DNA of 64,000 nt from an uncultured Candidatus Bathyarchaeia archaeon (GTDB lineage Archaea > Thermoproteota > Bathyarchaeia > 40CM-2-53-6 > DTDX01), in contig CAZSNM010000005.1 in the NCBI GenBank assembly GCA_964608455.1, forward strand, positions 4,069 to 68,068. Direction: 5' to 3'. Shown piece after piece: positions 2,368 through 55,685 of the stretch (its first letter is position 1; every line of letters begins with the position of its first letter). The position numbers and the translations under genes are program-made. Below the pieces are notes generated by a model. It was given only the letters and a program-made list of their open reading frames with translations, was not told the origin of the DNA and made no database searches.

Positions 2368-3033
2368 TCAAGTTGAGGCTTTAATTGCTAAATTGGATTC
2401 TGCAAAAAGAACTTCAGGCAATTCATAAAGAAAACTTTTAAACCTTAATATTGGCACTATTAATGAACCATTAAGGCTTTTATATGGTACATCAGCTAAA
2501 GTAATTATTAAAGGTAAAATCATAAAGCTTTTGTTTTTCTCAATTTTTAATTTTAAAATTAAATTAGGCAGCGATTTGCTAAATGATTTAACTCTTTTAA
2601 AATGTTTTTCTGCAGCTAAAGCAACCTTGCTTTTATACCAACCAAAACGCCATCCTTTGCAATCTAAGCATAGAATTACCGGTTCCTTAATGCCTATAAC
2701 ATCAATTTCCCATTTTTTATTTTTTATATCCTTAAATATGAATCTTTTAAAGGTTAAGTAATTGTTATACTCAAGAATTACAGAGCTGAATTCCTCAAAT
2801 TCTTTCCAATCTAGTAATCGAGAAATTTTTTCGAAATCAACTCCAAGATTTACAGCTTCAACAGCAATCATTAAACGATTAAAAGAATCAACATATATTT
2901 TTTCACCATCAAATTTTAATAAACCTTTATTAAAAGCCTCATTTATTTCAGTTAAATTAAACTTATTAAAAGTTAAAACTTTATTTTTTTTAGTTTGATT
3001 TAAAATGGAAAGAAGAAAATTTTTTGTAAACAT
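2368..3033 (-). CDS. hypothetical protein, possible PD-(D/E)xK nuclease fold
   Basis: 221 aa. The motif WEIDVIGIKEPVILCLDCKG resembles D...(D/E)xK restriction-endonuclease-like cores. No confident family assignment. Confidence 0.35.
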   Translation of the reverse strand: MFTKNFLLSILNQTKKNKVLTFNKFNLTEINEAFNKGLLKFDGEKIYVDSFNRLMIAVEAVNLGVDFEKISRLLDWKEFEEFSSVILEYNNYLTFKRFIFKDIKNKKWEIDVIGIKEPVILCLDCKGWRFGWYKSKVALAAEKHFKRVKSFSKSLPNLILKLKIEKNKSFMILPLIITLADVPYKSLNGSLIVPILRFKSFLYELPEVLFAESNLAIKAST

Positions 3034-3034
3034 T

Positions 3035-3394
3035 TTAAATCTTAATTGGTTTAATAATCCCCGCTAAAGTTAAATTAACAATACTGTTAATGCTTGCTTC
3101 TCCACTCACTTTACCATATTCATTTTTTATTTTAGTCCAAGCTAATTTGGTTCTTCCGCTTTTAGAAATATAAGTTATTTTTAAAATTTCTTTTGCCTTA
3201 ACAAATTTTACATTTTTAATCATCCCAAGCAACTCTTTATATTTAGCTTCAATAATAATTATTGATCCTTCACCAATTTTTTCAGGAAAAACCTCTTTAT
3301 TAAACATCCATTCTTTAGGAATAAAGCTTTGACAAACATTTAATATTAAGAATTTTCTAAAAGCTTCAAGTTTGCATAAAGCATTTATTTCCAT
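3035..3394 (-). CDS. hypothetical protein
   Basis: 119 aa ORF, separated by 1 nt from the upstream gene on the same strand. Confidence 0.4.
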   Translation of the reverse strand: MEINALCKLEAFRKFLILNVCQSFIPKEWMFNKEVFPEKIGEGSIIIIEAKYKELLGMIKNVKFVKAKEILKITYISKSGRTKLAWTKIKNEYGKVSGEASINSIVNLTLAGIIKPIKI

Positions 3395-3414
3395 ATTTTA
3401 TTAATTTTGAAGTT

Positions 3415-3735
3415 TTAGGAAACCTCAATAATTAATTGATATTCAGGAACATTTAATAATGTTAATTCTAATCTCCAAAATTCATCTTCAGCAGGAGAAG
3501 GTATTGAAAGCAAGCATTTTTTATAGCAATGATATTCTACATTTAAACCTGATACATTTATAATTGTTCTTTCAGTAATCTTCATATCCTTTTCGGTATA
3601 AACTTTATTTAATGCTTGAATTTTTACTTCAATTGAGCCCAAACCCAACCAAAAACATTCAATGCAAATTTGATTTGCTCCTTTCCTAACTTTAAAATTA
3701 AATGTTGCAGGAACCAAATAAGCTTCTTGAAGCAA
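3415..3735 (-). CDS. hypothetical protein
   Basis: 106 aa ORF, third member of a three-gene minus-strand cluster. Confidence 0.4.
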   Translation of the reverse strand: MLQEAYLVPATFNFKVRKGANQICIECFWLGLGSIEVKIQALNKVYTEKDMKITERTIINVSGLNVEYHCYKKCLLSIPSPAEDEFWRLELTLLNVPEYQLIIEVS

Positions 3736-4136: not shown

Positions 4137-4403
4137 TTATTTCTTTTTTTCCTCAACTTTTTCAGCTATTTCCTTAGCAATTTCCTCTATGCTTTTTCCT
4201 CTAGTGTCTATCCCTAATTTTTCAGCTGTTTCTAAAATAGCTTCTTTTCCGCTTTTTTCAGATTCAGTTCCTTCAACAGCTTTTTTATATTGTCTTATTG
4301 AATCTCCAATGGATCTAGCAAGTTCAGGAAGTTTTTTTCCTCCAAATAAAATTAAAACTATAGCTAAAACCAATGCTATTTCCCATGGACCAATAAAGGC
4401 CAA
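4137..4403 (-). CDS. tatA: twin-arginine translocase subunit TatA/E
   Basis: 88 aa with an N-terminal TM helix followed by an amphipathic helix; MAFIGPWEIALVLAIVLILFGGKKLPELARSIG matches the TatA signature. Confidence 0.8.
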   Translation of the reverse strand: MAFIGPWEIALVLAIVLILFGGKKLPELARSIGDSIRQYKKAVEGTESEKSGKEAILETAEKLGIDTRGKSIEEIAKEIAEKVEEKKK

Positions 4404-4492
4404 AACTTTAAACCTCCTTTTCCTTTACATTTAAAATTAAGGTTTCCACTACTACTTAAATCTTTTTCACTTTTAGTAGTAAGTTATAGATT

Positions 4493-4729
4493 TTAAGCTG
4501 AAATTAATGTAGCAGTTTTAACTATTCCAGGAATCTTTCTAATCAATGCTACTGTTTCGCTTAAAATTGAAAAATCATTAAGCTCAATTCTAACTATTAC
4601 ATCATATTCTCCATAAACAACTTTTGCTTCTGTAACGCCTGGAAACTTTTTTGCTTCTTTAACTACTTCTCTTTCTCTTCCAGCTTGAGTATTTATAAGC
4701 ATATAAACAATTGATGATTTTTCCTTCAA
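4493..4729 (-). CDS. stand-alone Lrp/AsnC C-terminal (RAM) domain protein
   Basis: 78 aa; matches the AsnC-type ligand-binding domain (YDVIVRIELNDFS...). One of four such paralogs in the window. Confidence 0.65.
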   Translation of the reverse strand: MKEKSSIVYMLINTQAGREREVVKEAKKFPGVTEAKVVYGEYDVIVRIELNDFSILSETVALIRKIPGIVKTATLISA

Positions 4730-4796
4730 AAATTAATCAACCTCAAAATTTAATTTTACTTTTATATAGCAATTTTATGCTTTAAATATTTTAGAT

Positions 4797-5921
4797 TTAA
4801 AATGGAAAGGCTATAAAGCATAGAATTAACATAACTATGGAAAGTATATAAAGAATTTTTCTAGAGTTGCTTAATGGAGAAACATCATCTAATGGTTCAG
4901 CACCTATTACTCCTCGTCCACTTCCAAACATCCATAACAAAAGAAATAGAGCAAAAAACCAATATCCCGAAAAAATCAATATAATTAACCCAATTAAAGA
5001 AGCGACTTTATGTCCTGAAGCCCCGAATATAGCTCGAGCTACATGACCTCCATCAAGTTGCCATATTGGAAGAATATTTAAAAATGTTAGTAAAGCGCCA
5101 ACCCAGGCAGCAAACTCTATTTGAGTTAAAACAAGCCTAAAACCTTGAGGAATTTGACGAATCAAAGGTAAAAGAATTTCAAATAATAATGGTGATTTTG
5201 GCCAATCCATTCTTTGAACTAGTTTTTGCTGCTCCCAAACGGCTACTTCAGCTTCAGGCACAAGAAAACCTAATTGAAAACTTAATATAGCTATAAGAAT
5301 TGTAGCTATAAACCCTGCAAATGGACCTGCAAATCCTATATCAAAAAGCTCATCCTTATTTGTTGGAGGAGACTTTAATGATACTATTGCTCCAAAAGTT
5401 CCAAATGGTGGAGGACCAGGAATAAAATATGGTAAAGAAAAAGTTAATCCATGAATTTTACAAGCAAGAATATGCCCTGATTCATGTAAACCAATTATAG
5501 CAAAAAGCGATATAGTGAATAAAGCTGCTTGAAGAAAAGCATTTTCACTTTTCATTAAAATTTCTTTTAATATTGGAGTATTAATGAAGCTATAGTATCC
5601 GGCTAAAAATATTGTTCCTAAAGTTGCGCTTAATAATATAAGGTTTAAAAGGTTGCTTTTTCCTTTTCTTTCAAAAGGTTTTAAAAGAATTTTTATAACA
5701 TATCGATTTTCTTCTTTTCTTAAAAAAGGCATTAAATTAAGTTTCATAAATTCTTTAGAAGCTTTCTTAAAGTTTTCCTTGGTTATTTCAGGTGAAATAA
5801 TAAAGTTTGGAATTCCCTTTTCATCTATATATGCATCTAACACATTAAATTTAGAGGAAATTAAAGCTTTTAATTCAGGGAATGAAGGATAATAGGGTGT
5901 TTCTAAATAATTAAAAGCCAT
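4797..5921 (-). CDS. site-2 protease family (M50) membrane metalloprotease
   Basis: HExxH (HESGHILA) inside a TM helix, an LDGG motif (WQLDGGHVARAIFG), and multiple TM segments. Confidence 0.75.
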   Translation of the reverse strand: MAFNYLETPYYPSFPELKALISSKFNVLDAYIDEKGIPNFIISPEITKENFKKASKEFMKLNLMPFLRKEENRYVIKILLKPFERKGKSNLLNLILLSATLGTIFLAGYYSFINTPILKEILMKSENAFLQAALFTISLFAIIGLHESGHILACKIHGLTFSLPYFIPGPPPFGTFGAIVSLKSPPTNKDELFDIGFAGPFAGFIATILIAILSFQLGFLVPEAEVAVWEQQKLVQRMDWPKSPLLFEILLPLIRQIPQGFRLVLTQIEFAAWVGALLTFLNILPIWQLDGGHVARAIFGASGHKVASLIGLIILIFSGYWFFALFLLLWMFGSGRGVIGAEPLDDVSPLSNSRKILYILSIVMLILCFIAFPF

Positions 5922-6043: not shown

Positions 6044-6520
6044 TTGATAAAAATGTTTGTTATTAGAAGGTTTAATCCAAACGATTTGAATGCTGTAATC
6101 GAAATAAATAGAAGATGTCTTCCTGAAAATTATACAATTAATTTCTTTATGGATATTTATAGAAATTGTCCTGAAGCTTTTTTAGTGGCTGAAGCTGAAG
6201 ATAAAATTGTTGGATATATAATGTGCAGATTAGAATATGGCTTTTCAGATTTTAACAGATTTAAACTTGTTAAAAAGGGGCATATTGTTTCAATAGCTGT
6301 ACTTAATGAATATAGACGAAAAGGAATAGGTTCATCTTTAATTGCTCAAGCCTTAAAAGAGCTTGCTAATGCTCAAGCTAAAGAATGTTATTTAGAGGTT
6401 AGAATTACTAATGAAGCGGGAATAAACCTTTATAAAAAGTTTGGTTTTGTAATTACTCAAAGAATAGCTTATTATTATCATGATGGAGAAGATGCTTACG
6501 TAATGTCTAAAAAGCTTTAA
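6044..6520 (+). CDS. GNAT family N-acetyltransferase (RimI/Ard1-like)
   Basis: 158 aa with the acetyl-CoA binding motif RRKGIGSSLI. Confidence 0.75.
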   Translation: MIKMFVIRRFNPNDLNAVIEINRRCLPENYTINFFMDIYRNCPEAFLVAEAEDKIVGYIMCRLEYGFSDFNRFKLVKKGHIVSIAVLNEYRRKGIGSSLIAQALKELANAQAKECYLEVRITNEAGINLYKKFGFVITQRIAYYYHDGEDAYVMSKKL

Positions 6521-9261
6521 GTTTTAACTTCTGGATAACTCATAGACTTAAATTTTAAAGATTTAAGTTGAAGAGAAATCCTTTTTAATAATTCTTCTTC
6601 AGTGATGTTAAGGGAATGAAGCCAAGCTTCTAATTGTTTTTGAATAGAAACAACATTAATGTTTTTTTCCATTAAAATTTCCCATTCATCTTTAGAGTTT
6701 TCATAATTCCATTTTGGAAGTAAAAACTTGTTTATTTTCATTTTTTTGGCTTTTAAAGCTGCAAGAAATTTTCCTGCACCTCTCCATCCAACACCGCCTA
6801 CTGGACCGACATTCCCTTTAATATCTCCTTTTCCAGTCATAACTACTGTTGGTTCAACTTTTATTTGAGTAAGCTCTGAAATAGCTGCTACGCTAAAAGC
6901 AACTCCTAAGCTTGGACCGCTAACTCCTAAACCTGAAGCCCCCTCCAATGGGCTAACAACTTCAAATATAAAATCGAATTTGGAGATGTCTTCACCAATT
7001 TTTTCTCTAACATATTTTTTAATGTACTCAACTACGTTTGCAGCACTTTCAATTACGCTTGTATCTTCAATAGCTGTTGGACCAACAATTGTTGACTTTG
7101 AAGCGCCTGTTACAATAGTTTTTCCATCACCATTTGGATTTATTACACATTCAACTATAAGTATTATTCCTCTTCTACCAGTTGGATCAGTTCCAAGCCC
7201 ATAAGCCACACCAGTTTCTGGTTCCTCAAAAACAGCACTTTCCTGAACATCCATTAATTCCTTATCTATATCTTGTTCAAGTTGTTGTGCAGCTTTTTCA
7301 AAATGATAAAGTTTAATTTTATAGTTTTCTCCAGTTAAATCGATAGGATTTTTAATTAATTCTTCTTCTTTTAAATTTAATACTTCACAAAGCCTCTTTA
7401 TATCATCATAAAACATTTTTAAAACTTTGCGTTTATGATTTTCATCTCCTTTTTTAAGCTCCCAAGAAGCGATAATCTCTTGGGTTCTTAATCGATTAGC
7501 AGATCTTATTATTTCTGCAACAACCCTTGGAGAAACAATTCTATACTTTTTTATTATTCTTAATACGCCATCAATGGTAACTTCCGGATCTAAATGCTCT
7601 AAATAATGATTTAAATGAATTCTAATTATATCTCGTCTTTCAGCATCATTTCTTGGCAATGGTATTTCTATAATGTTTGGTTCAAAACGATTTAAAACAG
7701 CTTCATCAACAGCTTCAAGTCTATTTGTAGCAGCTATAACAATAACATTTTCGAGAGGTTGCAATCCATCAAGTTCAGTTAATATTTGAGCAGTTATTCT
7801 ATCGCCTACAGGATCTCCTTTACGCTTTCCAGCTATTATATCAAATTCATCAAAAAATATTATACTTGGAGCTGCTTTTCTAGCTATTGCAAATAAATCT
7901 CTTACATTTTTTTCAGGTTCACCAACCCATTTAGCATTAATAAGAAGTTGAGCTGCTGGAGCATAAAAGAATTCAGCACCATTTTCTCTAGCGATAGCTT
8001 TAGAAATATGAGTTTTACCACAGCCAGGTTCACCCCAAAGAATAAACCCCTTAGGAGGTATCCAACCAAGCTTATTTACAAGCTCGGGCTTTAAACTTAA
8101 TGAAATTGTTTTAAAAATTTTTTCCTTTATACCAAATAATCCTCCAACATCATCATAAGTTATTGAAGGTTTTATTTTAAGAACAGAACTTATAACTTCA
8201 ACGCTTTTTTCCTGTTCAACATATCCTCTAAGCTCTCTAGCTACAGCCTCAAAATCTTCTATTGAAACCCTATATTTAATCTCGCTTTTTTGAGTTAATC
8301 TTCTTTCTAGTCTTTCAAAAAGGCTTTTTCTAATTGGCGCTATTTTCTTTTCTCTAACCTTATTGCAAGCATCAATTATATCAAATGGGGTTAATTGTGT
8401 TTGCCTATAAATACTTACTCCTTTTTCTAAAGTTTTCATAACTTCCTCTGGATTTAAATAGTCCCATCCATGACTTTTAAGTTCTGAACTTAAAATAGCT
8501 AAAAGCATTTCCCTAGTTATGTTTTGATCCAAATCTATTGTAAACGCTCTTCTTCTTATATCTTCTCTAATAGATTCATACATGCTTGTAGCAGCTATTA
8601 AAATAGTTCTTGTTGATGTATCTAAAAGTCTTCTTAAATTATTTATGAAAATGCTTTGAACTCGTAAATCTTCCATTTCAGCTACTCTAGCCGCTTTAGC
8701 TGTATCAATTTTTTTACCAAAACTTTCAAATTCATCTATGAAAATTATGCTTGGCGTATTAAAGGCTTTATCAAAAATAGCCATTAAGTTTCTAGCTGAT
8801 TGACCATAGAGAGGATCAAAAACTTCAGGTCCTTTAACAAAAATTGGTTGAACATTTACACCATTTTTTATTCCATGCATAACTCCTTCTCTAATGCATA
8901 CTTCTGCAAGTAAAGATTTTCCGGTTCCGCTTGCACCTTTAAGAATAAAGAATTTTGGTGGTGGAGCATCCTTAAGTAATTCTTTTATATATTTATCTTG
9001 AACAACATGAAAGCTTATGCTGGACATTATAAGCTCATATTCTTTATCTCTTCCAACAAGTTTTTCTCTTTTTGAAGGATAATTTTTATCAAGCTCCTTC
9101 ATCAACTTTTGGAGTTTTCTTGGAGTTAACTTTGCATTTTTCCATCTTCGATACTCCTTAGTTGTAACATATAATGGGAAACTTAATAGCATACCAAGCT
9201 TAGGATAACGAATCCACCAAGGTTTAAATTCTTCATCATTCTTCTTCATCGATAAGCTCAT
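6517..9261 (-). CDS. tandem AAA+ ATPase fused to a Lon-type (S16) protease domain
   Basis: Two Walker A/B modules (GASGTGKS / IIFIDEFESF and GEPGCGKTH / IIFFDEFD). The C-terminal region has the Lon proteolytic signature (GVAYGLG ... GPSLGVAF ... VVMTGKGDIKGNVGPVGGV ... AGKFLAALKAKK) with the Ser-Lys dyad context. No TM helices seen. Confidence 0.7.
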   Translation of the reverse strand: MSLSMKKNDEEFKPWWIRYPKLGMLLSFPLYVTTKEYRRWKNAKLTPRKLQKLMKELDKNYPSKREKLVGRDKEYELIMSSISFHVVQDKYIKELLKDAPPPKFFILKGASGTGKSLLAEVCIREGVMHGIKNGVNVQPIFVKGPEVFDPLYGQSARNLMAIFDKAFNTPSIIFIDEFESFGKKIDTAKAARVAEMEDLRVQSIFINNLRRLLDTSTRTILIAATSMYESIREDIRRRAFTIDLDQNITREMLLAILSSELKSHGWDYLNPEEVMKTLEKGVSIYRQTQLTPFDIIDACNKVREKKIAPIRKSLFERLERRLTQKSEIKYRVSIEDFEAVARELRGYVEQEKSVEVISSVLKIKPSITYDDVGGLFGIKEKIFKTISLSLKPELVNKLGWIPPKGFILWGEPGCGKTHISKAIARENGAEFFYAPAAQLLINAKWVGEPEKNVRDLFAIARKAAPSIIFFDEFDIIAGKRKGDPVGDRITAQILTELDGLQPLENVIVIAATNRLEAVDEAVLNRFEPNIIEIPLPRNDAERRDIIRIHLNHYLEHLDPEVTIDGVLRIIKKYRIVSPRVVAEIIRSANRLRTQEIIASWELKKGDENHKRKVLKMFYDDIKRLCEVLNLKEEELIKNPIDLTGENYKIKLYHFEKAAQQLEQDIDKELMDVQESAVFEEPETGVAYGLGTDPTGRRGIILIVECVINPNGDGKTIVTGASKSTIVGPTAIEDTSVIESAANVVEYIKKYVREKIGEDISKFDFIFEVVSPLEGASGLGVSGPSLGVAFSVAAISELTQIKVEPTVVMTGKGDIKGNVGPVGGVGWRGAGKFLAALKAKKMKINKFLLPKWNYENSKDEWEILMEKNINVVSIQKQLEAWLHSLNITEEELLKRISLQLKSLKFKSMSYPEVKT

Positions 9262-9610
9262 ACCATTCCCTCTTTTTAGCTATTCCATAAACTATTCCAG
9301 TCAAAATAACAGGAAAAATAGGTAGGAGTAAAATGGATTTTGAAATATGGATAAACAGATTTTTTCCAGTTAAAAACTTGAAAGTAAAACTTCCAAAAGT
9401 TAAAATTAAAGCTTCAAGTTCAACAATTCCAAAAGCTATTAAAAAGGCATAAAATAAAACTCTTATAATCATCGCTATAGAATCCTTTTTAACCCATCTA
9501 TCTCTTTTCCTAACTTTCATATCTTTAATATTTAATATTCCAACTGAAATAAATAAAGTTAATATAACAGCATATGAAGCAAATACTATTAGGGGAAAAA
9601 AATTAACCAT
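9236..9610 (-). CDS. small integral membrane protein (3-4 TM)
   Basis: 124 aa hydrophobic ORF that overlaps the start of the AAA-Lon gene by 26 nt, so probably co-transcribed. Confidence 0.5.
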   Translation of the reverse strand: MVNFFPLIVFASYAVILTLFISVGILNIKDMKVRKRDRWVKKDSIAMIIRVLFYAFLIAFGIVELEALILTFGSFTFKFLTGKNLFIHISKSILLLPIFPVILTGIVYGIAKKREWYELIDEEE

Positions 9611-9682: not shown

Positions 9683-10810
9683 ATGCTTAGGCATAAAGAA
9701 TGTAAACTTTGCAGTAAAAAAAGCGAGTTAATCTCAAGCATTCTTAACCTTTGTATTAACTGCATTAAAGAAAAACCTGATGAAACTAAACAATTAATAT
9801 TAGAGGCTCATGAATCAATAAGAGCCTTTTATAATCTACCTCCAGTACCTCCTAAATCATTAGGAGGAATTCAATGCAATTTATGCGCTAATGAATGTAT
9901 AATTGGTGTTGGAGAAAAAGGATATTGCGGTTTAAGAAAAAACTTAAATGGAAAATTAATTTCTTTATCCAGCACTGATAAAGCAGTTTTACATTGGTAT
10001 CCTGACCCTCATGTTACAAATTGTTGTAGCGCTTGGTTTTGTCCAGCTGGGACAGGATCAGGGTACCCAAAATTTGCTTATACTAATGGGCCGGAGATAG
10101 GATATAAAAATTTAGCTATATTCTTTTATGGATGTAATTTTGATTGTTTATTTTGTCAAAATGCTTCCCATAAAGATATAGATGAGGCTTCAACAATTTC
10201 CTTAAATGAATTAACTAAGGTAATTAAAAATGATAAAAAATATTCTTGCATATGTTTTTTCGGCGGCTCACCTGAACCCCAACTCCCATTCGCTATATCA
10301 TTTTCAAAAAAGGTGCTTGAAGAAAATCCAAATAGAATAATTAGAATTTGTTTTGAATGGAATGGATGCGGAAACAAGCTTTTAGTTAAAGAAGCTGCAG
10401 AAATTGCTTTTAAAAGCGGTGGAAACATTAAATTTGATTTAAAATGTTTTAATGAAAATTTAAGTTTGGCTTTAAGCGGAGTTTCAAATAAAAAAGCTTA
10501 TGAAAATTTTGAGTTTATAGCTAATGAATTTTATAATGAAAGAAAAGATTTACCAGTTTTAACAGCTACAACGCTTTTAGTTTCAGGATATGTTGATGAG
10601 GAAGAAGTTAAGAAAATTTCAGAGTTTATTGCAAGTTTAAACCCTGAAATTCCATATTCACTTTTAGTTTTTCATCCAGACTTCATGATGAATGATCTTC
10701 CCATAACCCCAAAAAATCAAGCATTAAACTGTTATAAAATTGCTAAAAGATTTTTAAGAAATGTTTATTTAGGAAATATTCATTTGCTTAGCAATTTAAG
10801 AATTTATTAA
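9683..10810 (+). CDS. radical SAM enzyme, PflA/AmrS-like, with an N-terminal Cys4 extension
   Basis: CNFDCLFC (CxxxCxxC) radical SAM motif. Preceded by IQCNLCANECIIGVGEKGYCGLRKNLNGKL, which is typical of AmmeMemoRadiSam/PFL-activase-like enzymes. There is an extra N-terminal CKLC...CINC segment. Confidence 0.7.
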   Translation: MLRHKECKLCSKKSELISSILNLCINCIKEKPDETKQLILEAHESIRAFYNLPPVPPKSLGGIQCNLCANECIIGVGEKGYCGLRKNLNGKLISLSSTDKAVLHWYPDPHVTNCCSAWFCPAGTGSGYPKFAYTNGPEIGYKNLAIFFYGCNFDCLFCQNASHKDIDEASTISLNELTKVIKNDKKYSCICFFGGSPEPQLPFAISFSKKVLEENPNRIIRICFEWNGCGNKLLVKEAAEIAFKSGGNIKFDLKCFNENLSLALSGVSNKKAYENFEFIANEFYNERKDLPVLTATTLLVSGYVDEEEVKKISEFIASLNPEIPYSLLVFHPDFMMNDLPITPKNQALNCYKIAKRFLRNVYLGNIHLLSNLRIY

Positions 10811-10948
10811 ATTTCTATTGCATAGCTATTTATCATTTATTGTTATCTAGAAGAGAAAGCTTTAAATAGTTTTAAGAATAAAACATAATATTTGATTTTT
10901 CACTGTTAAATTTTAATTAAAATAAAATAGTAATGGAGCGCTTTAATA

Positions 10949-12382
10949 TTGGAGGAAAAAATTCAAACATTCAGGTTAATCTCAAATAATTTTTTCACAA
11001 GAAGCTTGTTAAAAAGTATTTCAAACTATTGCGAAAAAGATGGAAAAAATAGACTGGAAATAGGCTTAGAGCTTTATTCAGGAGTTAGAAAAGAAGCATG
11101 TTTAAAATGCAGGGTTACCGAAAAATTTTTAAATTTAATTTTAAAAATCGGTAGAAAAACATTTAACGTTTCAGAGGAGGAAATGAAAAAAACTTTTGCT
11201 GATGCTTATTGGAGAAGAGGGTTAAGCAGTGTAGTTAAAGGATTAGGTCTTTTCGGTGTTACAAAACCATTTACTCCAGGAGCACCATTTCAAGTTGTTT
11301 GGGAAATAACTAAAGCTTGTAATTTAAGATGTAAACATTGCTCAGCTAATGCTGGAGTTGGACTAGATGAATTAAATACAGAAGAAGCTTTAAAAGCAAT
11401 AGATAAACTTGATAAATTTGGTATAACGATTTTAGCCTTCTCCGGTGGAGAACCATTAATTCGAAAAGATTTTCCTAAACTTGCTAAATATGCAGCTGAT
11501 AAAGGAATATACGTAGCTGTAGCTACAAATGGTACATTAATAACTAAGGAAAAAGCGAAAGAAATGAAGGAAGCTGGAATAGAGTATGTGCAAATCAGCC
11601 TTGATGGAGCAGTTCCAGAAACCCATGATCACTTTAGGGGAGTACAAGGTGCATTTAATAAAACTATTGAAGGAATTAAAAATGTTGTAGCTGAAGATTT
11701 CTTTGTTAACGTTTCAACCACTGTAACTAAATTAAATTATAGGGAAATTCCAAAAATACTAGATTTATGCGAAAAGCTTGGTGTAGATTGGTTTATGGCA
11801 TATAATTTTATTCCAACTGGAAGGGGCATCGATATAGCAGAGTTAGATTTGACGCCGGAAGAAAGAGAAAATCTTTTAAAAATGCTTTATGAAAGAATGC
11901 AAAATTCAAATATAGCTATGCTTTCTACAGCTCCTCAACTTGCTAGAGTTTCTTTAGAAGCTTCCTGCCAAAGCGAAGCATTAGTTTTAAGCCACTTTTA
12001 CTCAGCTAAATCAAGGGAAAAAATTAAGAGTTTAGCTGAATTTATAGGTGGATGCGGTGCAGGAAGATTTTATATAGCTATAAAGCCTAATGGTGATATT
12101 CAACCATGCGTTTTTCTACCATTAAAACTTGGAAACATTAAAAGCGATAATCTGGAAGAATTATGGGTAACATCTAAAGTTTTAAAAGATCTTAGAAATA
12201 AAGATGCTTTAAAAGGACATTGTGGAATATGCGAATATAGATATTATTGTGGTGGATGTAGGGCAAGAGCTTATGGATACTTTAAAGACTATTTAGCACC
12301 TGACCCAGGTTGCATAAATAATAACGAGTATTATGCTATGTTGAAAAAAGAAGTTGAGTTAACTCCTGTTATTCAACGTTAA
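10949..12382 (+). CDS. radical SAM/SPASM domain protein
   Basis: CNLRCKHC radical SAM motif and a C-terminal Cys-rich SPASM-like region (GGCGAGRFYIAIKPNGDIQPCVF ... CGICEYRYYCGGC), plus a ~110-aa N-terminal extension. Confidence 0.7.
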   Translation: MEEKIQTFRLISNNFFTRSLLKSISNYCEKDGKNRLEIGLELYSGVRKEACLKCRVTEKFLNLILKIGRKTFNVSEEEMKKTFADAYWRRGLSSVVKGLGLFGVTKPFTPGAPFQVVWEITKACNLRCKHCSANAGVGLDELNTEEALKAIDKLDKFGITILAFSGGEPLIRKDFPKLAKYAADKGIYVAVATNGTLITKEKAKEMKEAGIEYVQISLDGAVPETHDHFRGVQGAFNKTIEGIKNVVAEDFFVNVSTTVTKLNYREIPKILDLCEKLGVDWFMAYNFIPTGRGIDIAELDLTPEERENLLKMLYERMQNSNIAMLSTAPQLARVSLEASCQSEALVLSHFYSAKSREKIKSLAEFIGGCGAGRFYIAIKPNGDIQPCVFLPLKLGNIKSDNLEELWVTSKVLKDLRNKDALKGHCGICEYRYYCGGCRARAYGYFKDYLAPDPGCINNNEYYAMLKKEVELTPVIQR

Positions 12383-12410
12383 GTTTTTTATTTATTTTTA
12401 AAAGATTTTT

Positions 12411-13982
12411 GTGGAGGGAAAATTATTGGTTGAGATCATACTTACTGCTGATAGAACGTTAATGAGTAATTATCATGGAAAAGAATTTCTTGGTTTTGCT
12501 ACTAGTGCTCCACCAAACATTTTGCCAACCTGGCTTTATAAATTTATGTTTTTCCCTCCAATAAAAAATAAAAATGGTATACCGATTGAGGCTCCTTATG
12601 CGCTTAGAAAAATTGAAGCAAAGCTTCTAGATGAAGGGTTTAACGTGCTTACAGTTGATCCGGATCATTTAAAAAAGTATATTAAAAACGCTAAAGTTCT
12701 ATGTGTTCATGTTATGGATCCCTTTGGTTTAGGACCTTCATCAACAACCTTTGCTAGAATTCTTCGTACAGGTGAGCCTTATCTATCAAAATATTTTAAA
12801 GAATTGCTTACAAAGAATGAGGTTAAAGAAGCTAAGAAGCGAGGTTTAAAGATAATTGTGGGTGGTCCTGGAGTTTGGCAATTTAAATATAGAGTTGAAG
12901 AACAAAAAGCTTATGGAATAGATTGTATAGTTTATGGAGAAGCAGAACGTATTATTAGTAATCTTATAAGAAAAGCTTTAAATGGGGAAGAGTTACCAAG
13001 CTATTTTGAAGTTAACCTTTATGAATTACCAAGTTTAAACGAGATTTCAGAAATTAAAAACCCTTCAATTAATGGTTTAATTGAAGTTGGTCGTGGATGC
13101 CCTAGAGGATGCGATTTTTGCAGCGTAACCCTAAAGCCTTTAAGATGGTACCCGCTTGATAAAATAGAAAAGGAACTTCAAGTAAATGTTAAAGGTGGGT
13201 TAACTTCAGGCATTCTTCATGCTGAAGATGTGCTTCTTTATGGTTCTAAATCTGTTATTCCTGATAGAGAAAAAGTTCTTGAATTACATAAATTAACTAA
13301 AAAATATTTAAAGAATTTTTGTTGGAGCCATGTTAGCATAGCAGCTATAGCAGCTGATCCAAAATTGTTTAAAGAAGTTTCAGAAATAATTATTGATGAA
13401 AATCAAAAATGGTGGGGTGCTCAAATAGGTATAGAAACAGGTTCACCTAGATTAGTTAAATTAACTATGCCAGCTAAAGCTAAGCCTTTTAAACCTGAAG
13501 AGTGGCCTTCTGTTGTAAAGGAAGCGGCAGGTTTAATGAATGATTATGGATTGATACCTGCTTGCACATTGATTACAGGTTTACCTGAAGAAACTGATGA
13601 AGATGTAATTAAAACCATAGAATTAATTGAAGATTTGGATTGGTTTAAAAGTATGATCGTTCCGTTATTTTTTGTTCCCATGGGTAAATTAAAGAATAAA
13701 GATTGGTTTAAATATGAAGATTTAACAGAGTTACAAAAAGAATTGATGGTTAAATGTCTCAGTCATGATATTAAATATGCAAGGGAAATTATGGATTGGT
13801 ATATTAAGGAGAAATGGTATAGCCCTATATTAAGAAGGCTTTATGATTTGTTTATTTGGTTAATAGAGCGTAAAGGGAAAAAAAGCAAAATTTTTGAATA
13901 TCAAAAAGTTTCAGTTTTTCATAAGGAAAGGGAGGAAATTAAAGAGGTTGAAGCTGTTAAAAGAGGCTACTACTATTGCTGA
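12411..13982 (+). CDS. radical SAM enzyme with an N-terminal B12-binding-like domain
   Basis: GCPRGCDFC CxxxCxxC motif preceded by a ~200-aa Rossmann-like N-terminal domain; 523 aa. Confidence 0.65.
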   Translation: MEGKLLVEIILTADRTLMSNYHGKEFLGFATSAPPNILPTWLYKFMFFPPIKNKNGIPIEAPYALRKIEAKLLDEGFNVLTVDPDHLKKYIKNAKVLCVHVMDPFGLGPSSTTFARILRTGEPYLSKYFKELLTKNEVKEAKKRGLKIIVGGPGVWQFKYRVEEQKAYGIDCIVYGEAERIISNLIRKALNGEELPSYFEVNLYELPSLNEISEIKNPSINGLIEVGRGCPRGCDFCSVTLKPLRWYPLDKIEKELQVNVKGGLTSGILHAEDVLLYGSKSVIPDREKVLELHKLTKKYLKNFCWSHVSIAAIAADPKLFKEVSEIIIDENQKWWGAQIGIETGSPRLVKLTMPAKAKPFKPEEWPSVVKEAAGLMNDYGLIPACTLITGLPEETDEDVIKTIELIEDLDWFKSMIVPLFFVPMGKLKNKDWFKYEDLTELQKELMVKCLSHDIKYAREIMDWYIKEKWYSPILRRLYDLFIWLIERKGKKSKIFEYQKVSVFHKEREEIKEVEAVKRGYYYC

Positions 13983-15463: not shown

Positions 15464-15748
15464 TTAATCCTCTTCAGATTCTAAAAGAAGTTTCAAAGGA
15501 ATGTTCTGGCTTGTTCCATCTGGAAGCTGACGTCTAATGCTTATGGGTAAAATGCCTTCTTTCAATTCTAAAAGAGCTATTTCAATTGGAGATTTAACAC
15601 TTGGAGGTACATCTATTAATACAGGTGCTCCCATAGCTATTTGCATTGCTCGAGCCCCGACAATCCTAGTTTTTTCAAAGCGGGTAAGCTTTTTAGGACC
15701 GATCAGCGTAGTCTCTATAGAGTTAAGTTTCTCCGAGTTCTTCACCAC
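15464..15748 (-). CDS. rpoK: DNA-directed RNA polymerase subunit K (RpoK/Rpb6)
   Basis: [25 protein letters not shown] matches the RpoK/omega signature; 94 aa. Confidence 0.8.
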
Positions 15749-17402
15749 TCTCTTCTGGCCCCTTTGATGGCCCTTTTTCTTCTTTAGTTTTAGAAGCTGC
15801 TATTACATCATCTATTCTTAATATCATTGTTGCAGCTTCGCTTGCAGATTTAATAACTTGCATTTTAACAGCTAATGGTTCATAAACATCAAGTTTACTC
15901 ATATCAGCAACTTTACCCGAGAATACATCTACTCCAGCCCATTTTTCTCCTTTATCATGTTTAGCTCTTAACTCTGTAATTATATCTATTGGATCTAAAC
16001 CAGCATTTTCAGCTAAGGTCATTGGTATGCTCTCTAAAGCTTCAGCAAAAGCTAAAACAGCTAACTGTTCTTTTCCAGCTAGCTTCTCAGCATATTGCCT
16101 TAACCTTCTAGCGACTTCAGCTTCAGGTGCTCCACCGCCAGCTACTACTCTTGGGTCTCTAACAACATCTCTAACAACGCATAAGGCGTCATGAATGGCT
16201 CTTTCAGCTTCATTAACTATTCTTTCTGCACCTCCACGAACTAAAATAGTAACAGACTTAGGGTTTTTGCATCCTTCCACAAAAGTCATTTTATCATCTG
16301 CAACTTTTCTTTCTTCAACAAGTTTAGCAAAACCTAGATCATTTGGAGTTAAATCATCAAGGTTTGTTATTATCTTTCCTCCTGTAGCTTTAGCCAGTTT
16401 TTCCATATCAGATTCTTTAGCTCTTCTGACGGCTAAAATTCCTTTTTTAGCTAGGAAGTGTTGAGCCATATCATCGATTCCTTTTTGGCAAATAACAACG
16501 TCAGCTCCAGCTTTAGCAATTTTTTCAACCATTTCTTGAAGCATTCTTTCTTCTTCTTTAAGAAAAGCATCCATTTGCTCAGGTGTTTCTATGTTTATTT
16601 TAGCGTCCATTTCTGTTTTTTCTATTTCTAAAGGACAATTAAGCAAAGCTATTTTAGCGTTTTCTATTCTTTTAGGCATGCCTGGATGAACAACTTCCTT
16701 ATCAAGTACAACTCCTTTAACTAGCTTTGTATCCATTAGGGATTCTCCAGCTTTTTTTTCAACTTTCACATCGTCAATATCAACTTTATAACCTTCCAGA
16801 GTTTTTTCAGCCACCTGAAGAATAGCATCAACAGTTAAATCCGCTATATAATCTTTATATTCTGAAAGCAGTTTACTAGCTACAGCTACTTTAGCAACTT
16901 TCTTTAAAAATTCTTTATCACTTGGTTCCACTTTAATAGCTATTTCTTCAAGAGCTTTAAGAGCTTCTTCAGAAGCGGCTCTATAACCATCAACGATTAC
17001 AGTTGGATGAACATCTTTATCAATAAGCTCCTCAGCTTTAGTAAGGAGTTCTCCAGCTAATACTACGGCGGTTGTTGTTCCATCTCCTACTTCATCATCT
17101 TGTGTTTTAGCTACTTCAACCATCATTTTAGCTGCTGGATGTTGAACATCAATCTCATCAAGAATAGTAGCCCCATCATTAGTAATAGTAACATCACCAA
17201 AGCTGTCAACAAGCATTTTATCCATTCCCTTTGGTCCTAGGGAGCTTTTTACAGTTTCAGCGATAATTCTAGCAGCAGTAATATTTGCATGTTGAGCTTC
17301 TCTTCCTCTAGATCGGGTAGTACCTTCTTTTAATATCAAAATCGGAGTTCCAGCAAGTTCTGGAGTGGATTCGACTGCCATACCATAAAACCCCCTTTTC
17401 AA
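15723..17402 (-). CDS. ths: thermosome subunit (group II chaperonin)
   Basis: 559 aa with GPKGMDKML, the [12 protein letters not shown]-binding motif and a GDGTTT loop. Confidence 0.95.
16641..17228. repeat. 588-bp tract, identical apart from a single mismatch, to 61282-61869 in inverted orientation
   Basis: Direct nucleotide comparison of the reverse complement with the second thermosome gene: identical including synonymous sites, flanked by diverged sequence. Confidence 0.85.
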
Positions 17403-31344: not shown

Positions 31345-31449
31345 TTTAAATCACTTTTTTTACTTAAATTTAAAAAAAGACAAAAATAAACCTCTTAATT
31401 TAATTCTTTGAGTTAATAGAGTTATTCTTAATGGTATTTTAAAGATGTT

Positions 31450-50000: not shown

Positions 50001-50110
50001 ATAAAACCCCCAGAATAATTTAATAATTTACTGTTAAACTTTTGCTTTCATTATTTTTAATATTTATAATTTATAAATGCCTTAAAATCTTAATAGATAG
50101 GGTGAATGCG

Positions 50111-53100: not shown

Positions 53101-53155
53101 TATTTTAACTATTGCTTTTAAATTAGCATTAGGAAAAAAGAGTTTGGAAAAATAA
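50111..53155 (+). CDS. large secreted cell-surface protein with repeated beta-sandwich modules and a PEF-CTERM-like anchor
   Basis: Start placed at the ATG giving MERGRLIILLVFLLTVSFMI (signal peptide/TM). Recurring G.Y.VKVW..GYIQ modules. C-terminal PEFPNN + TM helix + GKK. Confidence 0.6.
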   Translation: MERGRLIILLVFLLTVSFMIKVNEYKALEFSPSKGWGMFFNTTGNIKINITEPGVAVKIEVPREFLEGKLENDTSFLYSDITRDYYYYIVIDQSRHYPYDENAPYIIEVLNPPVYIQPNCIKTFFNFTPPKYILMKNLKAPRIAGLYNFSIYIAKKVDVNGLPIYPAKPSNIVTVPVSMREDPSSISGYIVDEITGVRIKAKGVVYAIEVNTGVMARAYVNASTGFFNLTGLYKGTYRIEASAGYFQETGYAYALTEASEPVIINNVAQKINIGNLSLKRGNIISGEIIYLDTFNLIDEIQPLESPYLKALGFKGLNYTVEVYDEQNRIVASNIYESKNLSHEPFRLITRNGTKHVGYSSVGTEYAGFGPGVYTLKVWVFGFLQRNTLSITITGYGIEFSNVKIQLIYGGLINGTIRLFNNQTRNLESPRKAEQLTFGTSTGTYYGGNIVIKAYNEVGELKGLTLINATYSNGTIAYADEATIKFYILGFSEFYNKTYSGTWRIGSYPGPSPWDSGLPEGRYEVKVWIRGYIQSNKAIVSLSTGGRSSVTVDMVRGGAFQVTVISMHSRPGTRYPRAEAHWRFLNLCPQPYLRVYFYRLGVEEGFGETQLKLGFPGVTETRAKINFSGDNPSIKSIIYNGVIPSALREGEYLIKVYTYGYIQANDVIVYLYSSQLQSATVILLMGSGINGTVTLIANEVFSELTENAFIEVDALLNENLKGVDVVNVSKGSSVFTFSIYGFYGKGHFFYVAPDGTKWPDYGLDVGNYTVYVPEFGFEWKYMQKKLVYANIQDLGVTVGIHFSLYRLGKIYGIIKGEAKTPFINYIPLVWALITADNIEAYSFDGDYVIHLPEGEYNVEYSYPGYEAQTIHISIGGSFAISQDIILRQATPTPSFPTASLTISLKDNSSGFYILSANLLNESSLENNAVFLWFSNSGKFNSTIGKTVLWIPTDYREEHEIKVIAIVDGKALSSTSIKLLNIETPEFPNNSLNLIFTLIILTIAFKLALGKKSLEK

Positions 53156-55607: not shown

Positions 55608-55685
55608 AGCGGGGTGGGGTAGCCAGGTTAACCCGCAGGGCTCATAACCCTGAGATCGGACGTTCGAATCGTCCCCCCGCTACCA
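55608..55685 (+). tRNA. initiator tRNA-Met (CAT), CCA encoded
   Basis: Hand-folded cloverleaf: acceptor AGCGGGG/CCCCGCT with an A1:U72 pair; anticodon stem carrying three consecutive G-C pairs (GGG/CCC); loop CTCATAA; T-loop TTCGAAT; discriminator A then CCA. Confidence 0.8.

What the first reader, a model, noticed from the sequence alone, without database searches (positions are those of the whole stretch)
6517..9610. Unusual protease: two AAA+ modules fused to a Lon S16 proteolytic domain, with a separate small membrane protein
Archaeal LonB normally has a single AAA+ module with an inserted membrane anchor. This 914-aa protein has two complete Walker A/B modules (CDC48/ClpA-like tandem arrangement), a C-terminal Lon protease domain (GPSLGVAF ... 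K) and no predicted TM helix. The downstream 124-aa 3-4 TM protein overlaps its start and may act as the membrane tether. A double-ring AAA-Lon is an uncommon architecture.
Basis: seen in the sequence. Interest (0 to 1): 0.6.

Follow-up and report, generated by a model that had tools for sequence, protein, structure and literature searches.

The report
Membrane-tethered double-ring AAA–Lon protease
This archaeal operon encodes an undescribed ATP-driven protease, made of a Cdc48-like pair of AAA motors fused to a Lon peptidase, plus a small membrane protein that is its likely anchor because Asgard archaea encode the two as one protein.

Summary
ORF 6517-9261 (-) encodes a 914-aa protein with two intact classic-clade AAA modules, collinear with Cdc48/VAT D1-D2. 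It ends in a Lon S16 domain whose Ser784-Lys831 dyad is invariant across 76 homologues. It has no hydrophobic segment.

The 124-aa three-helix membrane protein (9236-9610, -) lies upstream, not downstream, and overlaps the protease start by 26 nt.

In Odin-, Hod- and Promethearchaeota the membrane protein is the in-frame N-terminus of the protease. In all 59 testable metagenomic loci it is a separate ORF ending W-Y-E/D-L-I-D-E, with the protease gene in the +1 frame.

The family spans Bathyarchaeia, Nezhaarchaeales, Methanomethylicia, Sulfolobales-order MAGs, Nitrososphaerota-labelled MAGs and Asgard archaea. Databases call it only "AAA family ATPase", and I found no description of it in the literature I could search.

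It fails the defining tests for LonA, LonB and Cdc48. The AAA clade is wrong for Lon, the catalytic Ser is preceded by Pro rather than LonB's Asp, the Ser-Lys spacing is 46 rather than 42, and there is no Cdc48 N domain.

The most likely function is a membrane-tethered hexameric unfoldase-protease, analogous to FtsH. This is a new variant of a known kind. Interest 0.68.

The parts
9236..9610 (-). Gene for the 124-aa membrane partner. It has three predicted TM helices with an inferred N-out/C-in topology. The cytoplasmic loop is strongly basic (KDMKVRKRDRWVKKD), and the conserved cytoplasmic tail is ...KREWYELIDEEE*.
   Evidence: ORF. Hydrophobic blocks at 1-29, 42-76 and 84-112. It aligns at 34% identity (E 4e-15) to the N-terminal extension of the fused Odinarchaeial protein P0023. 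A partner with the same tail motif is present in 59 of 59 loci. No Pfam, NCBIfam or PADLOC family matches.
9236..9272 (-). Junction between the two genes. It holds an SD-like GAGGG (9272-9268), a 6-nt spacer, the protease start ATG (9261-9259) embedded in the partner's W-Y-E codons, and the partner's TGA stop (9238-9236). The overlap is 26 nt, with the protease in the +1 frame.
   Evidence: Sequence. The same frame relation holds in every locus examined. Overlaps are 14-26 nt (up to 53 nt) where an ATG precedes the conserved WW motif. The stop is TGA in 40 of 45 distinct sequences. A GGAGG/GAGGG sits 5-9 nt before the ATG in most loci.
8977..9261 (-). N-terminal helical region of the protease (aa 1-95). 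W15, W16 and W40 are invariant, within a PWW...YRRW motif. This region replaces the Cdc48 N domain and directly follows the membrane domain in the fused Asgard forms.
   Evidence: Alignments. The AF2 model shows helices 15-60 at pLDDT 77-88. The CDC48 profile match begins only at profile position 210, and there is no CDC48_N hit.
8227..8976 (-). AAA module D1 (aa 96-345). It carries Walker A GASGTGKS (K115), pore loop Y152-G153, Walker B D176-E177, T225-S226 at the sensor-1 site, and R236-R238.
   Evidence: Pfam AAA match. The residues listed are invariant across 76 sequences. D1 aligns better to D1 of VAT/p97 (43.5 bits) than to D2 (30.7 bits).
7582..8169 (-). AAA module D2 (aa 365-560). It carries Walker A GEPGCGKT (K416), pore loop K-W445-V-G447, Walker B D471-E472, sensor-1 N513 and a single Arg finger R525 (LNRFEP, Vps4-like).
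   Evidence: Best Pfam AAA stretch is 407-530. PDB matches align D2 to D2 of VAT/p97 over 310-566. Conservation.
7234..7581 (-). D2 lid plus a helical linker (aa 561-676). It includes the invariant S577-P578-R579 at the position where classic AAA proteins have 'SGA'.
   Evidence: AF2 helices 563-676. Conservation. No Pfam family covers this stretch.
6649..7233 (-). Lon S16 proteolytic domain (aa 677-871). Catalytic Ser784 lies in GVSGPSLG, T809 in MTGK, and catalytic Lys831 follows a family-specific GWRG insertion.
   Evidence: Pfam Lon_C E 3.1e-13. It aligns to the A. fulgidus LonB P domain 1z0b with S784 matching Ser509 and K831 matching Lys552. S784, K831, G822/G823 and G828/G830 are invariant.
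6517..6648 (-). C-terminal helical tail (aa 872-914) and stop codon. There is no HbYX motif. The stop overlaps the 3' end of the convergent GNAT acetyltransferase gene (6044-6520, +) by 4 nt.

Best explanation
The two genes form an operon for a membrane-tethered, ATP-dependent, self-compartmentalising protease of a type not yet described.

The 914-aa subunit is a Cdc48-derived type II AAA unfoldase (D1 and D2). Its substrate-binding N domain has been replaced by a short Trp-rich helical region. Its C-terminus carries a Lon (S16) Ser-Lys peptidase instead of a proteasome-docking tail.

By analogy with Cdc48 and Lon, it should assemble as a hexamer of three stacked rings. Substrates would be gripped by the D1 and D2 pore loops, unfolded, threaded and delivered into the Lon chamber.

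The 124-aa three-helix protein places the D1 face against the cytoplasmic side of the membrane. It does this as a separate subunit in Thermoproteota and as a covalent N-terminal domain in Asgard archaea. Membrane proteins or membrane-proximal proteins are therefore the likely substrates. This is a role analogous to bacterial FtsH and overlapping with archaeal LonB.

The protease ORF is most likely translated by SD-directed initiation or by termination-reinitiation inside the 3' end of the partner gene, which would couple the amounts of the two subunits.

Shown here: domain composition, conservation of the catalytic residues, and the gene fusion and gene linkage. Inferred: hexamer formation, threading direction, membrane localisation of the split form, and substrate class.
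For: - Domains and motifs.
- Catalytic and ATPase residues are invariant across 76 homologues down to 35% identity (14-sequence view).
- Collinear with Cdc48. TIGR01243 matches residues 100-674 to profile positions 210-723. D2 aligns to D2 and D1 to D1. The AF2 model has mean pLDDT 83.5, and Foldseek's top PDB hits are p97/Cdc48 at E about 3e-29 over roughly 640 columns.
- Lon active site. It aligns with AfLonB Ser509 and Lys552.
- Tether, fused form. The fusion occurs in Odin, Hod and Prometheoarchaeota proteins P0046, P0023, P0022 and P0035, including the complete Odinarchaeum genome. The pairwise alignment scores E 4e-15. AF2 of P0023 gives three long helices, then a low-confidence linker (117-124), then the PWW region.
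- Tether, split form. A separate partner ORF is present in 59 of 59 loci, always in the same frame relation.
- More distant clades. A partner of similar architecture lies upstream in one clade (L147, 26-nt spacer) and is divergently transcribed in another (L146).
- Translation. SD-like GGAGG/GAGGG lies 5-9 nt before the internal ATG in most loci.
- Context from the literature. Archaea are said to have only the proteasome and LonB as ATP-dependent proteases and to lack FtsH (PMC4343526).
Against: - No biochemical data exist for any family member.
- Neither the hexamer nor the complex with the partner was modelled. Only monomer predictions were possible, and the coordinates could not be inspected.
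- In the fused form the linker between the membrane domain and the protease is predicted to be flexible. So there is no evidence of a packed interface that would hold the split subunits together.
- The partners of the distant clades are not significantly similar in sequence to the close-clade partner.
- One locus (L095) has no ATG, GTG or TTG before the conserved N-terminal motif. Simple reinitiation does not explain this.
- Sensor-1 in D1 is Ser in this window where most homologues have Asn.
- I could not test whether LonB coexists in the same genomes.
Confidence: 0.7

Rival explanations
1. Programmed +1 ribosomal frameshifting at the end of the partner ORF makes a single fused polypeptide in Thermoproteota as well, reproducing the Asgard architecture. 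The 124-aa protein would be only the termination product.
For: - The protease ORF is in the +1 frame in every locus examined, across class-level divergence.
- The partner's stop lies at an almost fixed position and is TGA in 40 of 45 distinct sequences.
- The open stretch of the protease frame upstream of the overlap is short (14-62 nt).
- One clade has lost the ATG and has at most a TTG. L095 has no canonical start before the invariant WW motif.
- A +1 shift at the stop would give ...YELIDEEE-DEEFKPWW, which is collinear with the Asgard ...YELIDEELYGFKPWW.
Against: - The last sense codon before the stop varies (GAT, TAC, GAG, GAC, GAA, TTC, GGT, GGC), and none can re-pair in the +1 frame. There is no conserved slippery site.
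- Most loci have a well-spaced SD plus ATG.
- In a distant clade the two genes are separated by a 26-nt spacer (L147), and in another they are divergently transcribed (L146). The system therefore works as two polypeptides there.
- The partner's conserved W-Y-E/D and I-D codons readily generate ATG or TTG codons in the +1 frame.
Confidence: 0.07
2. The small membrane protein is not a passive anchor. It is a regulator, adaptor or substrate-gating subunit, comparable to HflK/C for FtsH. Alternatively, the long forms sense the extracellular side through their ectodomain.
For: - Many lineages encode a long partner of 257-302 aa with a signal peptide, an ectodomain of about 130-150 aa rich in N-glycosylation sequons, and the same C-terminal TM module.
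- The conserved acidic tail W-Y-E-L-I-D-E-E could be a docking peptide.
Against: - The fusion in Asgard archaea and the short 124-aa forms show that the three-helix module alone is the conserved core.
- No domain family is recognisable in the ectodomain.
- This reading is compatible with anchoring and does not exclude it.
Confidence: 0.1
3. The protein is a membrane-associated unfoldase or segregase in which one ring, or the Lon domain, is structural only. Precedents are p97 D1, NSF D2 and the non-ATPase LonC.
For: - In type II AAA proteins one ring is often catalytically weak (established knowledge).
- D1 has Ser at the sensor-1 site in this window.
- D2 has a single Arg finger.
- LonC shows that Lon-family modules can lose activity (PMC3391209 abstract).
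Against: - Walker A Lys, Walker B Asp-Glu, pore-loop aromatic-Gly and the Arg residues are invariant or nearly invariant in both rings.
- Ser784, Lys831 and Thr809 are invariant or at least 90% conserved in 76 sequences.
- Such conservation is not expected for dead sites.
Confidence: 0.08
4. The adjacency to the membrane protein is incidental and the enzyme is a soluble cytoplasmic protease.
For: The 914-aa protein has no hydrophobic segment. Outside the partner gene, the gene neighbourhood is not conserved.
Against: - There is an in-frame fusion in at least four Asgard lineages.
- Linkage holds in 59 of 59 loci, with a conserved overlap.
Confidence: 0.03

Closest known systems
Cdc48 / VAT / p97 (type II classic-clade AAA unfoldases)
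   Same: Both have a tandem D1-D2 of classic AAA modules that align collinearly, D1 to D1 and D2 to D2. Cdc48-type proteins are the best sequence and structure matches (VAT 5g4g at E 8e-80; p97 by Foldseek at E 3e-29). The pore loops and second region of homology are retained.
   Different: - There is no double-psi-barrel N domain.
- The C-terminus has no HbYX motif for docking to the 20S proteasome and instead carries its own Lon peptidase.
- It scores 210 bits against the 803-bit cut-off of TIGR01243.
- The Arg-finger regions are Vps4-like (RRR in D1, NRFEP in D2).
- It is membrane-tethered through a dedicated TM partner.
Archaeal LonB (MEROPS S16.005)
   Same: Both have a C-terminal S16 Ser-Lys peptidase. 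The closest solved P domain is A. fulgidus LonB. Both are membrane-associated ATP-dependent proteases of archaea.
   Different: - LonB has one Lon-type (HCLR-clade) AAA+ module with the membrane anchor inserted inside it. This protein has two classic-clade modules, and the anchor is a separate or N-terminally fused three-helix domain.
- LonB has Asp before the catalytic Ser; this protein has Pro.
- The Ser-Lys spacing is 46 residues here against 42 in LonB (criteria from PMC9569914).
- It scores 57 bits against the 517-bit cut-off of TIGR00764.
LonA / LonBA
   Same: The active site is A-type, with Pro before the Ser (GPS). Like Bacillus LonBA, the membrane segment is N-terminal rather than inserted in the AAA module (PMC9569914).
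   Different: - There is no LON N domain and no coiled-coil insertion.
- There are two AAA modules, of a different clade.
- The Lys loop carries a 4-residue insertion.
- It scores 60 bits against the 608-bit cut-off of TIGR00763.
FtsH (bacterial and organellar membrane AAA protease)
   Same: The overall logic is the same: an N-terminal membrane anchor, with an ectodomain in the long partner forms, then a classic-clade AAA module, then a C-terminal peptidase in the same assembly. Membrane-protein quality control is the likely role. FtsH is absent from archaea (PMC4343526).
   Different: FtsH has one AAA ring and an M41 zinc metallopeptidase on a single polypeptide. This protein has two rings and a Ser-Lys Lon peptidase, and the anchor is usually a separate polypeptide. 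The two are analogous, not homologous as whole assemblies.
ClpAP / ClpCP and Cdc48-20S (double-ring unfoldase plus separate peptidase)
   Same: A double AAA ring feeds a self-compartmentalised peptidase.
   Different: In those systems the peptidase is a separate oligomer with a symmetry mismatch. Here it is covalently fused and presumably has matching six-fold symmetry. The ClpA and ClpB rings also belong to different AAA+ clades.

Membership tests
Peptidase family S16 (Lon_C, PF05362) | Match to the Lon proteolytic domain above the curated threshold | tested here: met
   50.2 bits against a cut-off of 21.1, E 3.1e-13, residues 677-871.
Peptidase family S16 (Lon_C, PF05362) | Ser-Lys catalytic dyad present and conserved | tested here: met
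   S784 and K831 align to AfLonB Ser509 and Lys552. Both are invariant in 76 sequences.
LonB (archaeal, S16.005) | Single Lon-type AAA+ module | tested here: not met
   There are two PF00004 classic AAA modules. TIGR00764 matches only residues 656-894, at 57.4 bits against a cut-off of 516.6.
LonB (archaeal, S16.005) | Membrane-anchoring segment inserted within the AAA+ module | tested here: not met
   No hydrophobic window reaches 1.6 anywhere in the 914-aa protein. The definition comes from PMC9569914.
LonB (archaeal, S16.005) | Asp immediately before the catalytic Ser ([E/D]GDSA[S/T]) | tested here: not met
   The motif is GVSGPSLG, with Pro783 before Ser784. P783 is at least 90% conserved. 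Criteria come from PMC9569914 and PMC2605481.
LonA / LonB (both) | Catalytic Ser and Lys separated by exactly 42 residues | tested here: not met
   S784 and K831 are separated by 46 residues. The difference is a family-wide insertion, GG-x-G/D-W/x-R-G-x-G-K. The criterion comes from PMC9569914.
LonA | N-terminal LON domain and one AAA+ module; equivalog score | tested here: not met
   There is no LON-domain hit. TIGR00763 scores 59.8 bits against a cut-off of 608.
LonA | Pro before the catalytic Ser (A-type centre) | tested here: met
   GPS784.
Cdc48 / VAT / p97 | Tandem D1-D2 classic AAA modules | tested here: met
   TIGR01243 aligns collinearly over residues 100-674. D1 matches D1 and D2 matches D2. 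Foldseek top hits are p97.
Cdc48 / VAT / p97 | N-terminal double-psi barrel / beta-clam substrate-adaptor domain | tested here: not met
   The profile match starts at position 210 of 733 and no CDC48_N or CDC48_2 hit is found. AF2 shows only short helices in residues 15-95.
Cdc48 / VAT / p97 | Subfamily score threshold (TIGR01243) | tested here: not met
   209.7 bits against a cut-off of 802.65.
Cdc48 (archaeal, proteasome-activating) | C-terminal HbYX motif for 20S docking | tested here: not met
   The C-terminus is ...SYPEVKT and lies after a Lon domain. The motif definition is from my own knowledge (Barthelme & Sauer 2012).
FtsH | M41 zinc metallopeptidase domain after a single AAA module | tested here: not met
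   There is no Peptidase_M41 hit. TIGR01241 matches only the D2 AAA region (363-553), at 135.9 bits against a cut-off of 600.
Hexameric ring AAA+ protease (functional class) | Hexamer with an axial pore feeding an enclosed peptidase chamber; ATP-dependent proteolysis | not testable with these tools
   Only monomer models were possible. This needs multimer modelling, cryo-EM and enzymology.
Anti-phage defence systems (PADLOC) | Specific match to a defence-system protein | tested here: not met
   Only generic AAA similarity to IetA and TRIP13 over the D2 region was found, and nothing for the partner.

The most novel reading that the evidence does not exclude
This is a third, previously unrecognised class of ATP-dependent protease in Archaea, alongside the proteasome and LonB. 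It would be a membrane-tethered Cdc48-Lon machine, ancestral to Thermoproteota plus Asgard archaea, that extracts and degrades membrane proteins. It would fill the role FtsH has in bacteria and anticipate Cdc48-driven membrane extraction in eukaryotes.

A less likely variant is that the conserved +1 overlap is a programmed frameshift that produces the fused form in Thermoproteota.
Probability: 0.45. Interest if true: 0.78.

Novelty: new variant of a known kind. Interest (0 to 1): 0.68.

Why it matters
[quoted passage not shown] This family would add a third.

It combines a Cdc48-type double motor with a Lon peptidase and a dedicated membrane anchor. It is conserved in lineages that include the closest archaeal relatives of eukaryotes.

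It is a natural covalent unfoldase-peptidase with presumably matched six-fold symmetry. That is useful for mechanistic work on how two stacked AAA rings hand a polypeptide to a peptidase.

It also bears on where membrane-associated Cdc48 functions came from. The split and fused gene forms give a clean handle for studying subunit coupling by overlapping genes in archaea.

In practical terms, many database entries labelled 'AAA family ATPase', 'Vps4 family ATPase' or 'transitional endoplasmic reticulum ATPase' could be re-annotated.

Tried and rejected
- **Genome-contig scan with the full-length alignment.** The tool chose generic AAA motifs (GEPGCGKT, GEPEK...) and returned ordinary Cdc48/AAA loci from many phyla. 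As a result I could not list named or cultured species that carry the family, or test co-occurrence with LonB.
- **afdb50 fold search.** The library was unavailable.
- **Literature.** Seven full-text searches and reading five papers found no description of an AAA-AAA-Lon_C protein. The papers were the ESCRT/Vps4 phylogeny PMC11188069, the LonBA classification PMC9569914, the 2008 serine-protease architecture survey PMC2605481, the Cdc48-family evolution paper PMC5070193, and the archaeal membrane-protease review PMC4343526. The 2008 survey lists LON-AAA-Lon_C, Sigma54-AAA-Lon_C and Mg_chelatase-Lon_C, but not this architecture. Subscription-only literature was not searched, so absence is not proven.
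- **Defence-system hypothesis.** Rejected. PADLOC gives only generic AAA hits, and the distribution looks vertical.
- **Assembly or fusion artefact.** Rejected. The exact 914-aa and 124-aa sequences recur on several independent contigs from NCBI, JGI and ENA.
- **Sequence link between close-clade and distant-clade partners.** BLASTP was not significant. Only the two distant-clade partners match each other weakly, at E 2e-4. I treat the distant partners as suggestive only.
- **Amphipathic-helix test of the N-terminal PWW region.** It gave no clear signal, so I make no claim that this region is an in-plane membrane anchor.
- **LonA versus LonB affinity of the P domain.** Not resolved. The bit scores are similar, and the active-site motif is A-type while the best solved match is LonB.
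- **'Bacterial' labels on some members (Methylomirabilota, Dormibacteraeota).** I read these as binning errors. P0017 is 68% identical to the window protein. The one distant-clade locus I examined (L147, the P0086 locus) has archaeal-type neighbours, namely class I LysRS and split GMP synthase.

Full report
**What is there**

On the minus strand, ORF 9610-9236 encodes a 124-aa protein and ORF 9261-6517 encodes a 914-aa protein. The two overlap by 26 nt. The protease ATG (9261-9259) lies inside the W-Y-E codons of the small protein's tail ...KREWYELIDEEE*, and a GAGGG sits 6 nt upstream of it.

The window is about 30% G+C. It also carries CODH/ACS genes, two thermosome subunits and acetyl-CoA synthetase. 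The closest protein in public data is 93% identical and labelled Bathyarchaeia. The exact 914-aa and 124-aa sequences are already in NCBI, JGI and ENA, either unnamed or as 'AAA family ATPase' and 'hypothetical protein'.

**Domain anatomy**

Pfam finds two AAA (PF00004) stretches at a combined E of 9.5e-52, and Lon_C over residues 677-871 at E 3.1e-13, above threshold.

NCBIfam aligns residues 100-674 collinearly with positions 210-723 of the CDC48 model. The score is 210 bits against a cut-off of 803. LonA, LonB and FtsH equivalogs are all far below their cut-offs.

The best solved relatives are Thermoplasma VAT and p97/Cdc48. D1 on its own prefers D1 of VAT/p97 (43.5 against 30.7 bits), and D2 aligns to D2. 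The tandem therefore descends from a Cdc48-type ancestor and is not a local duplication.

An AF2 model built on 76 homologues has mean pLDDT 83.5. It shows two Rossmann-type AAA folds with lids, a helical linker at 561-676 and an alpha/beta Lon domain. Foldseek's top PDB hits are p97 chains at E about 3e-29 over roughly 640 columns.

Residues 1-95 form short helices with invariant W15, W16 and W40. They replace the Cdc48 N domain. The C-terminus has no HbYX motif.

**Are the modules active?**

The answer comes from a 76-sequence alignment that reaches 35% identity (the 14-sequence view is).

Invariant positions:
- D1: G109, G112, G114 and K115 (Walker A), Y152 and G153 (pore loop), D176 and E177 (Walker B), R236-R238.
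- D2: G410, P412, G413, G415 and T417 (Walker A), G447 (pore loop), D471 and E472 (Walker B), N513 (sensor-1), R525 (Arg finger).
- Lon domain: S784, K831, G822, G823, G828 and G830.

K416, T809 and P783 are at least 90% conserved.

D2 keeps sensor-1 and one arginine finger, in a Vps4-like 'NRFEP' context. D1 keeps three arginines. In this window the D1 sensor-1 position is Ser, where most homologues have Asn.

An invariant S577-P578-R579 sits where classic AAA proteins have 'SGA'. This would place an Arg at the sensor-2 position, but that is an inference from motif position only.

**The Lon domain**

The best solved match is the A. fulgidus LonB P domain, at E 1e-8. S784 aligns with Ser509 and K831 with Lys552.

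Rotanova and co-workers give two criteria for the Lon subfamilies. [quoted passage not shown] By these criteria this domain fits neither subfamily. It has Pro783, which is A-type, and a separation of 46 residues caused by a family-wide insertion (GGVGWRGAGK).

**The membrane partner**

The 914-aa protein has no hydrophobic window of 1.6 or above. The 124-aa protein has three hydrophobic blocks.

The decisive result is that orthologues from Odinarchaeia (including the complete Odinarchaeum yellowstonii genome), Hodarchaeota and Promethearchaeota are about 100 aa longer at the N-terminus. That extension is homologous to the 124-aa protein, at 34% identity and E 4e-15 over residues 14-122 of P0023. 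It runs straight from ...YELIDEE into ...FKPWW, the start of the protease. This is a Rosetta-stone fusion.

AF2 of the fused protein predicts three long helices (2-35, 42-78, 91-112). They are followed by a low-confidence linker (117-124) and then the PWW helices.

The basic loop after helix 1, together with the cytoplasmic AAA domains, implies an N-out/C-in topology.

**Conservation of the split form**

A metagenome scan with a family-specific D1-lid motif returned 60 loci. In all 59 that have 5' sequence:
- an upstream same-strand ORF ends W-[YF]-[DE]-L-[IV]-D-[EA]-E-x*;
- the protease ORF is in the +1 frame;
- overlaps are 14-26 nt (up to 53 nt) in the loci where an ATG precedes the conserved WW motif, and in a minority clade the first ATG lies downstream of that motif.

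The partners are either short (124-126 aa) or long (257-302 aa). The long forms add a signal peptide and an ectodomain before the same three-helix module. This is seen in Nezhaarchaeota, among others.

A more distant clade, at about 37% identity, has a partner of similar architecture. It lies upstream with a 26-nt spacer in L147 and is divergently transcribed in L146. The sequence link is weak: E 2e-4 between those two partners, and none to the close-clade partner. No other neighbouring gene is conserved.

**How the second ORF is translated**

Most loci have GGAGG or GAGGG 5-9 nt before an ATG at position -23 relative to the first base of the partner's stop codon. Others have TTG-ATG at -14/-11.

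The stop is TGA in 40 of 45 distinct sequences, but the preceding codon varies and offers no +1 re-pairing. I therefore favour ordinary SD-directed initiation or termination-reinitiation coupling.

I give programmed +1 frameshifting about 7%. One clade has lost the ATG, and one locus (L095) has no canonical start before the invariant WW motif. That remains unexplained.

**How it most likely works**

Established mechanisms of Cdc48/p97 and Lon suggest the following, all of it inference. Six subunits form stacked D1, D2 and Lon rings. The partner holds the D1 entrance at the membrane. Substrates are gripped by the Y152-G153 and W445-V-G447 pore loops, unfolded with ATP, and cleaved in the Lon chamber by Ser784-Lys831.

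The overall layout of membrane anchor, optional ectodomain, classic AAA module and peptidase parallels FtsH. FtsH is absent from archaea, where only the proteasome and LonB are listed as ATP-dependent proteases (PMC4343526).

**Distribution and novelty**

Full-length members at 58-93% identity come from:
- Bathyarchaeia and Hecatellales;
- Nezhaarchaeales;
- Methanomethylicia;
- Sulfolobales-order and Desulfurococcaceae MAGs;
- Odin-, Hod- and Promethearchaeota.

A second tier, at about 37% identity, comes from MAGs labelled Thermoproteota, Nitrososphaerota or Brockarchaeota.

A search of 1.84 billion representative proteins with the C-terminal 354 aa found 33 clusters at E <= 1e-10. About 20 full-length representatives have two Walker A motifs plus GPS[AL]G. 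Beyond these the hits are ordinary LonA.

No Pfam or NCBIfam model is specific to the family, and no paper I could search describes it.

The family fails defining features of LonA, LonB, Cdc48 and FtsH, yet it works on the same principles as they do. I therefore class it as a new variant of a known kind. It is not categorically new.

**Limits**

- No multimer model, and no access to model coordinates.
- The genome-contig scan was wasted on generic motifs, so cultured hosts and co-occurrence with LonB are unknown.
- The LonA versus LonB affinity of the P domain is unresolved.
- All functional statements are inferences from conservation and homology.

Noticed in passing
L095:1483-1630 (also L093, L096, L101, L115, L116, L130, L111): In one clade of short-partner loci the internal ATG of the protease ORF is lost through a change that is synonymous in the partner frame (GAT to GAC). 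Most of these loci keep only a TTG. L095 has no ATG, GTG or TTG before the invariant FKYWW motif, so how its protease is initiated is unexplained.
   Followed up: partly
window 7525-7533 (aa 577-579): An invariant Ser-Pro-Arg in the D2 lid lies where classic-clade AAA proteins have 'SGA'. This would restore a sensor-2-like arginine, which the classic clade normally lacks. The call rests on motif position only.
   Followed up: no
window 63693-63796 (+): Rfam finds a 104-nt tRNA (45 bits) that ARAGORN does not report. It is probably an intron-containing archaeal tRNA. A normal tRNA-Met lies at 55608-55685.
   Followed up: no
window 4137-5921 (-) and 2368-3735 (-); L001:9371-13597: Several membrane-proteostasis and export genes lie just beyond the protease operon: a site-2 protease (Peptidase_M50, 4797-5921), an AsnC-type regulator and TatA. 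In close relatives a rhomboid is also nearby. This neighbourhood is conserved only among close Bathyarchaeia relatives and is absent in the Odin, Nezha and distant-clade loci.
   Followed up: partly
window 9683-13982 (+): Three consecutive radical-SAM genes (375, 477 with a SPASM domain, and 523 aa) are transcribed divergently from the partner gene. They are conserved in close relatives (L001-L003). Their function was not examined.
   Followed up: no
window 15723-17402 (-), 61135-62778 (+), 28999-33363 (-), 44389-46341 (-): Two thermosome (Cpn60/TCP-1) subunit genes, a CODH/ACS alpha-beta pair and an acetyl-CoA synthetase are present. This fits a Wood-Ljungdahl Bathyarchaeia genome.
   Followed up: partly
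window 50042-53155 (+): A 1037-aa ORF whose only Pfam match is a CarboxypepD_reg domain. It is probably a large surface protein.
   Followed up: no
P0017, P0091; L147: Some family members are labelled as bacterial MAGs (Methylomirabilota, Dormibacteraeota). P0017 is 68% identical to the window protein. The examined distant-clade locus L147 (P0086) has archaeal-type neighbours, namely class I LysRS and split GMP synthase. The bacterial labels therefore look like binning contamination.
   Followed up: partly
L005:4205-5026; L147:3087-3974; L146:3173-3985 (-): Long partner forms carry an N-terminal signal peptide and an ectodomain of about 130-150 aa with several N-x-S/T sequons. The ectodomain has no Pfam match and would be an uncharacterised extracellular domain attached to the protease anchor.
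   Followed up: partly
P0282 / P0283: On one NCBI MAG contig the protease is annotated as two partial proteins (598 and 356 aa). This is probably a frameshift or assembly error, and it shows how the family can be missed in annotation.
   Followed up: no
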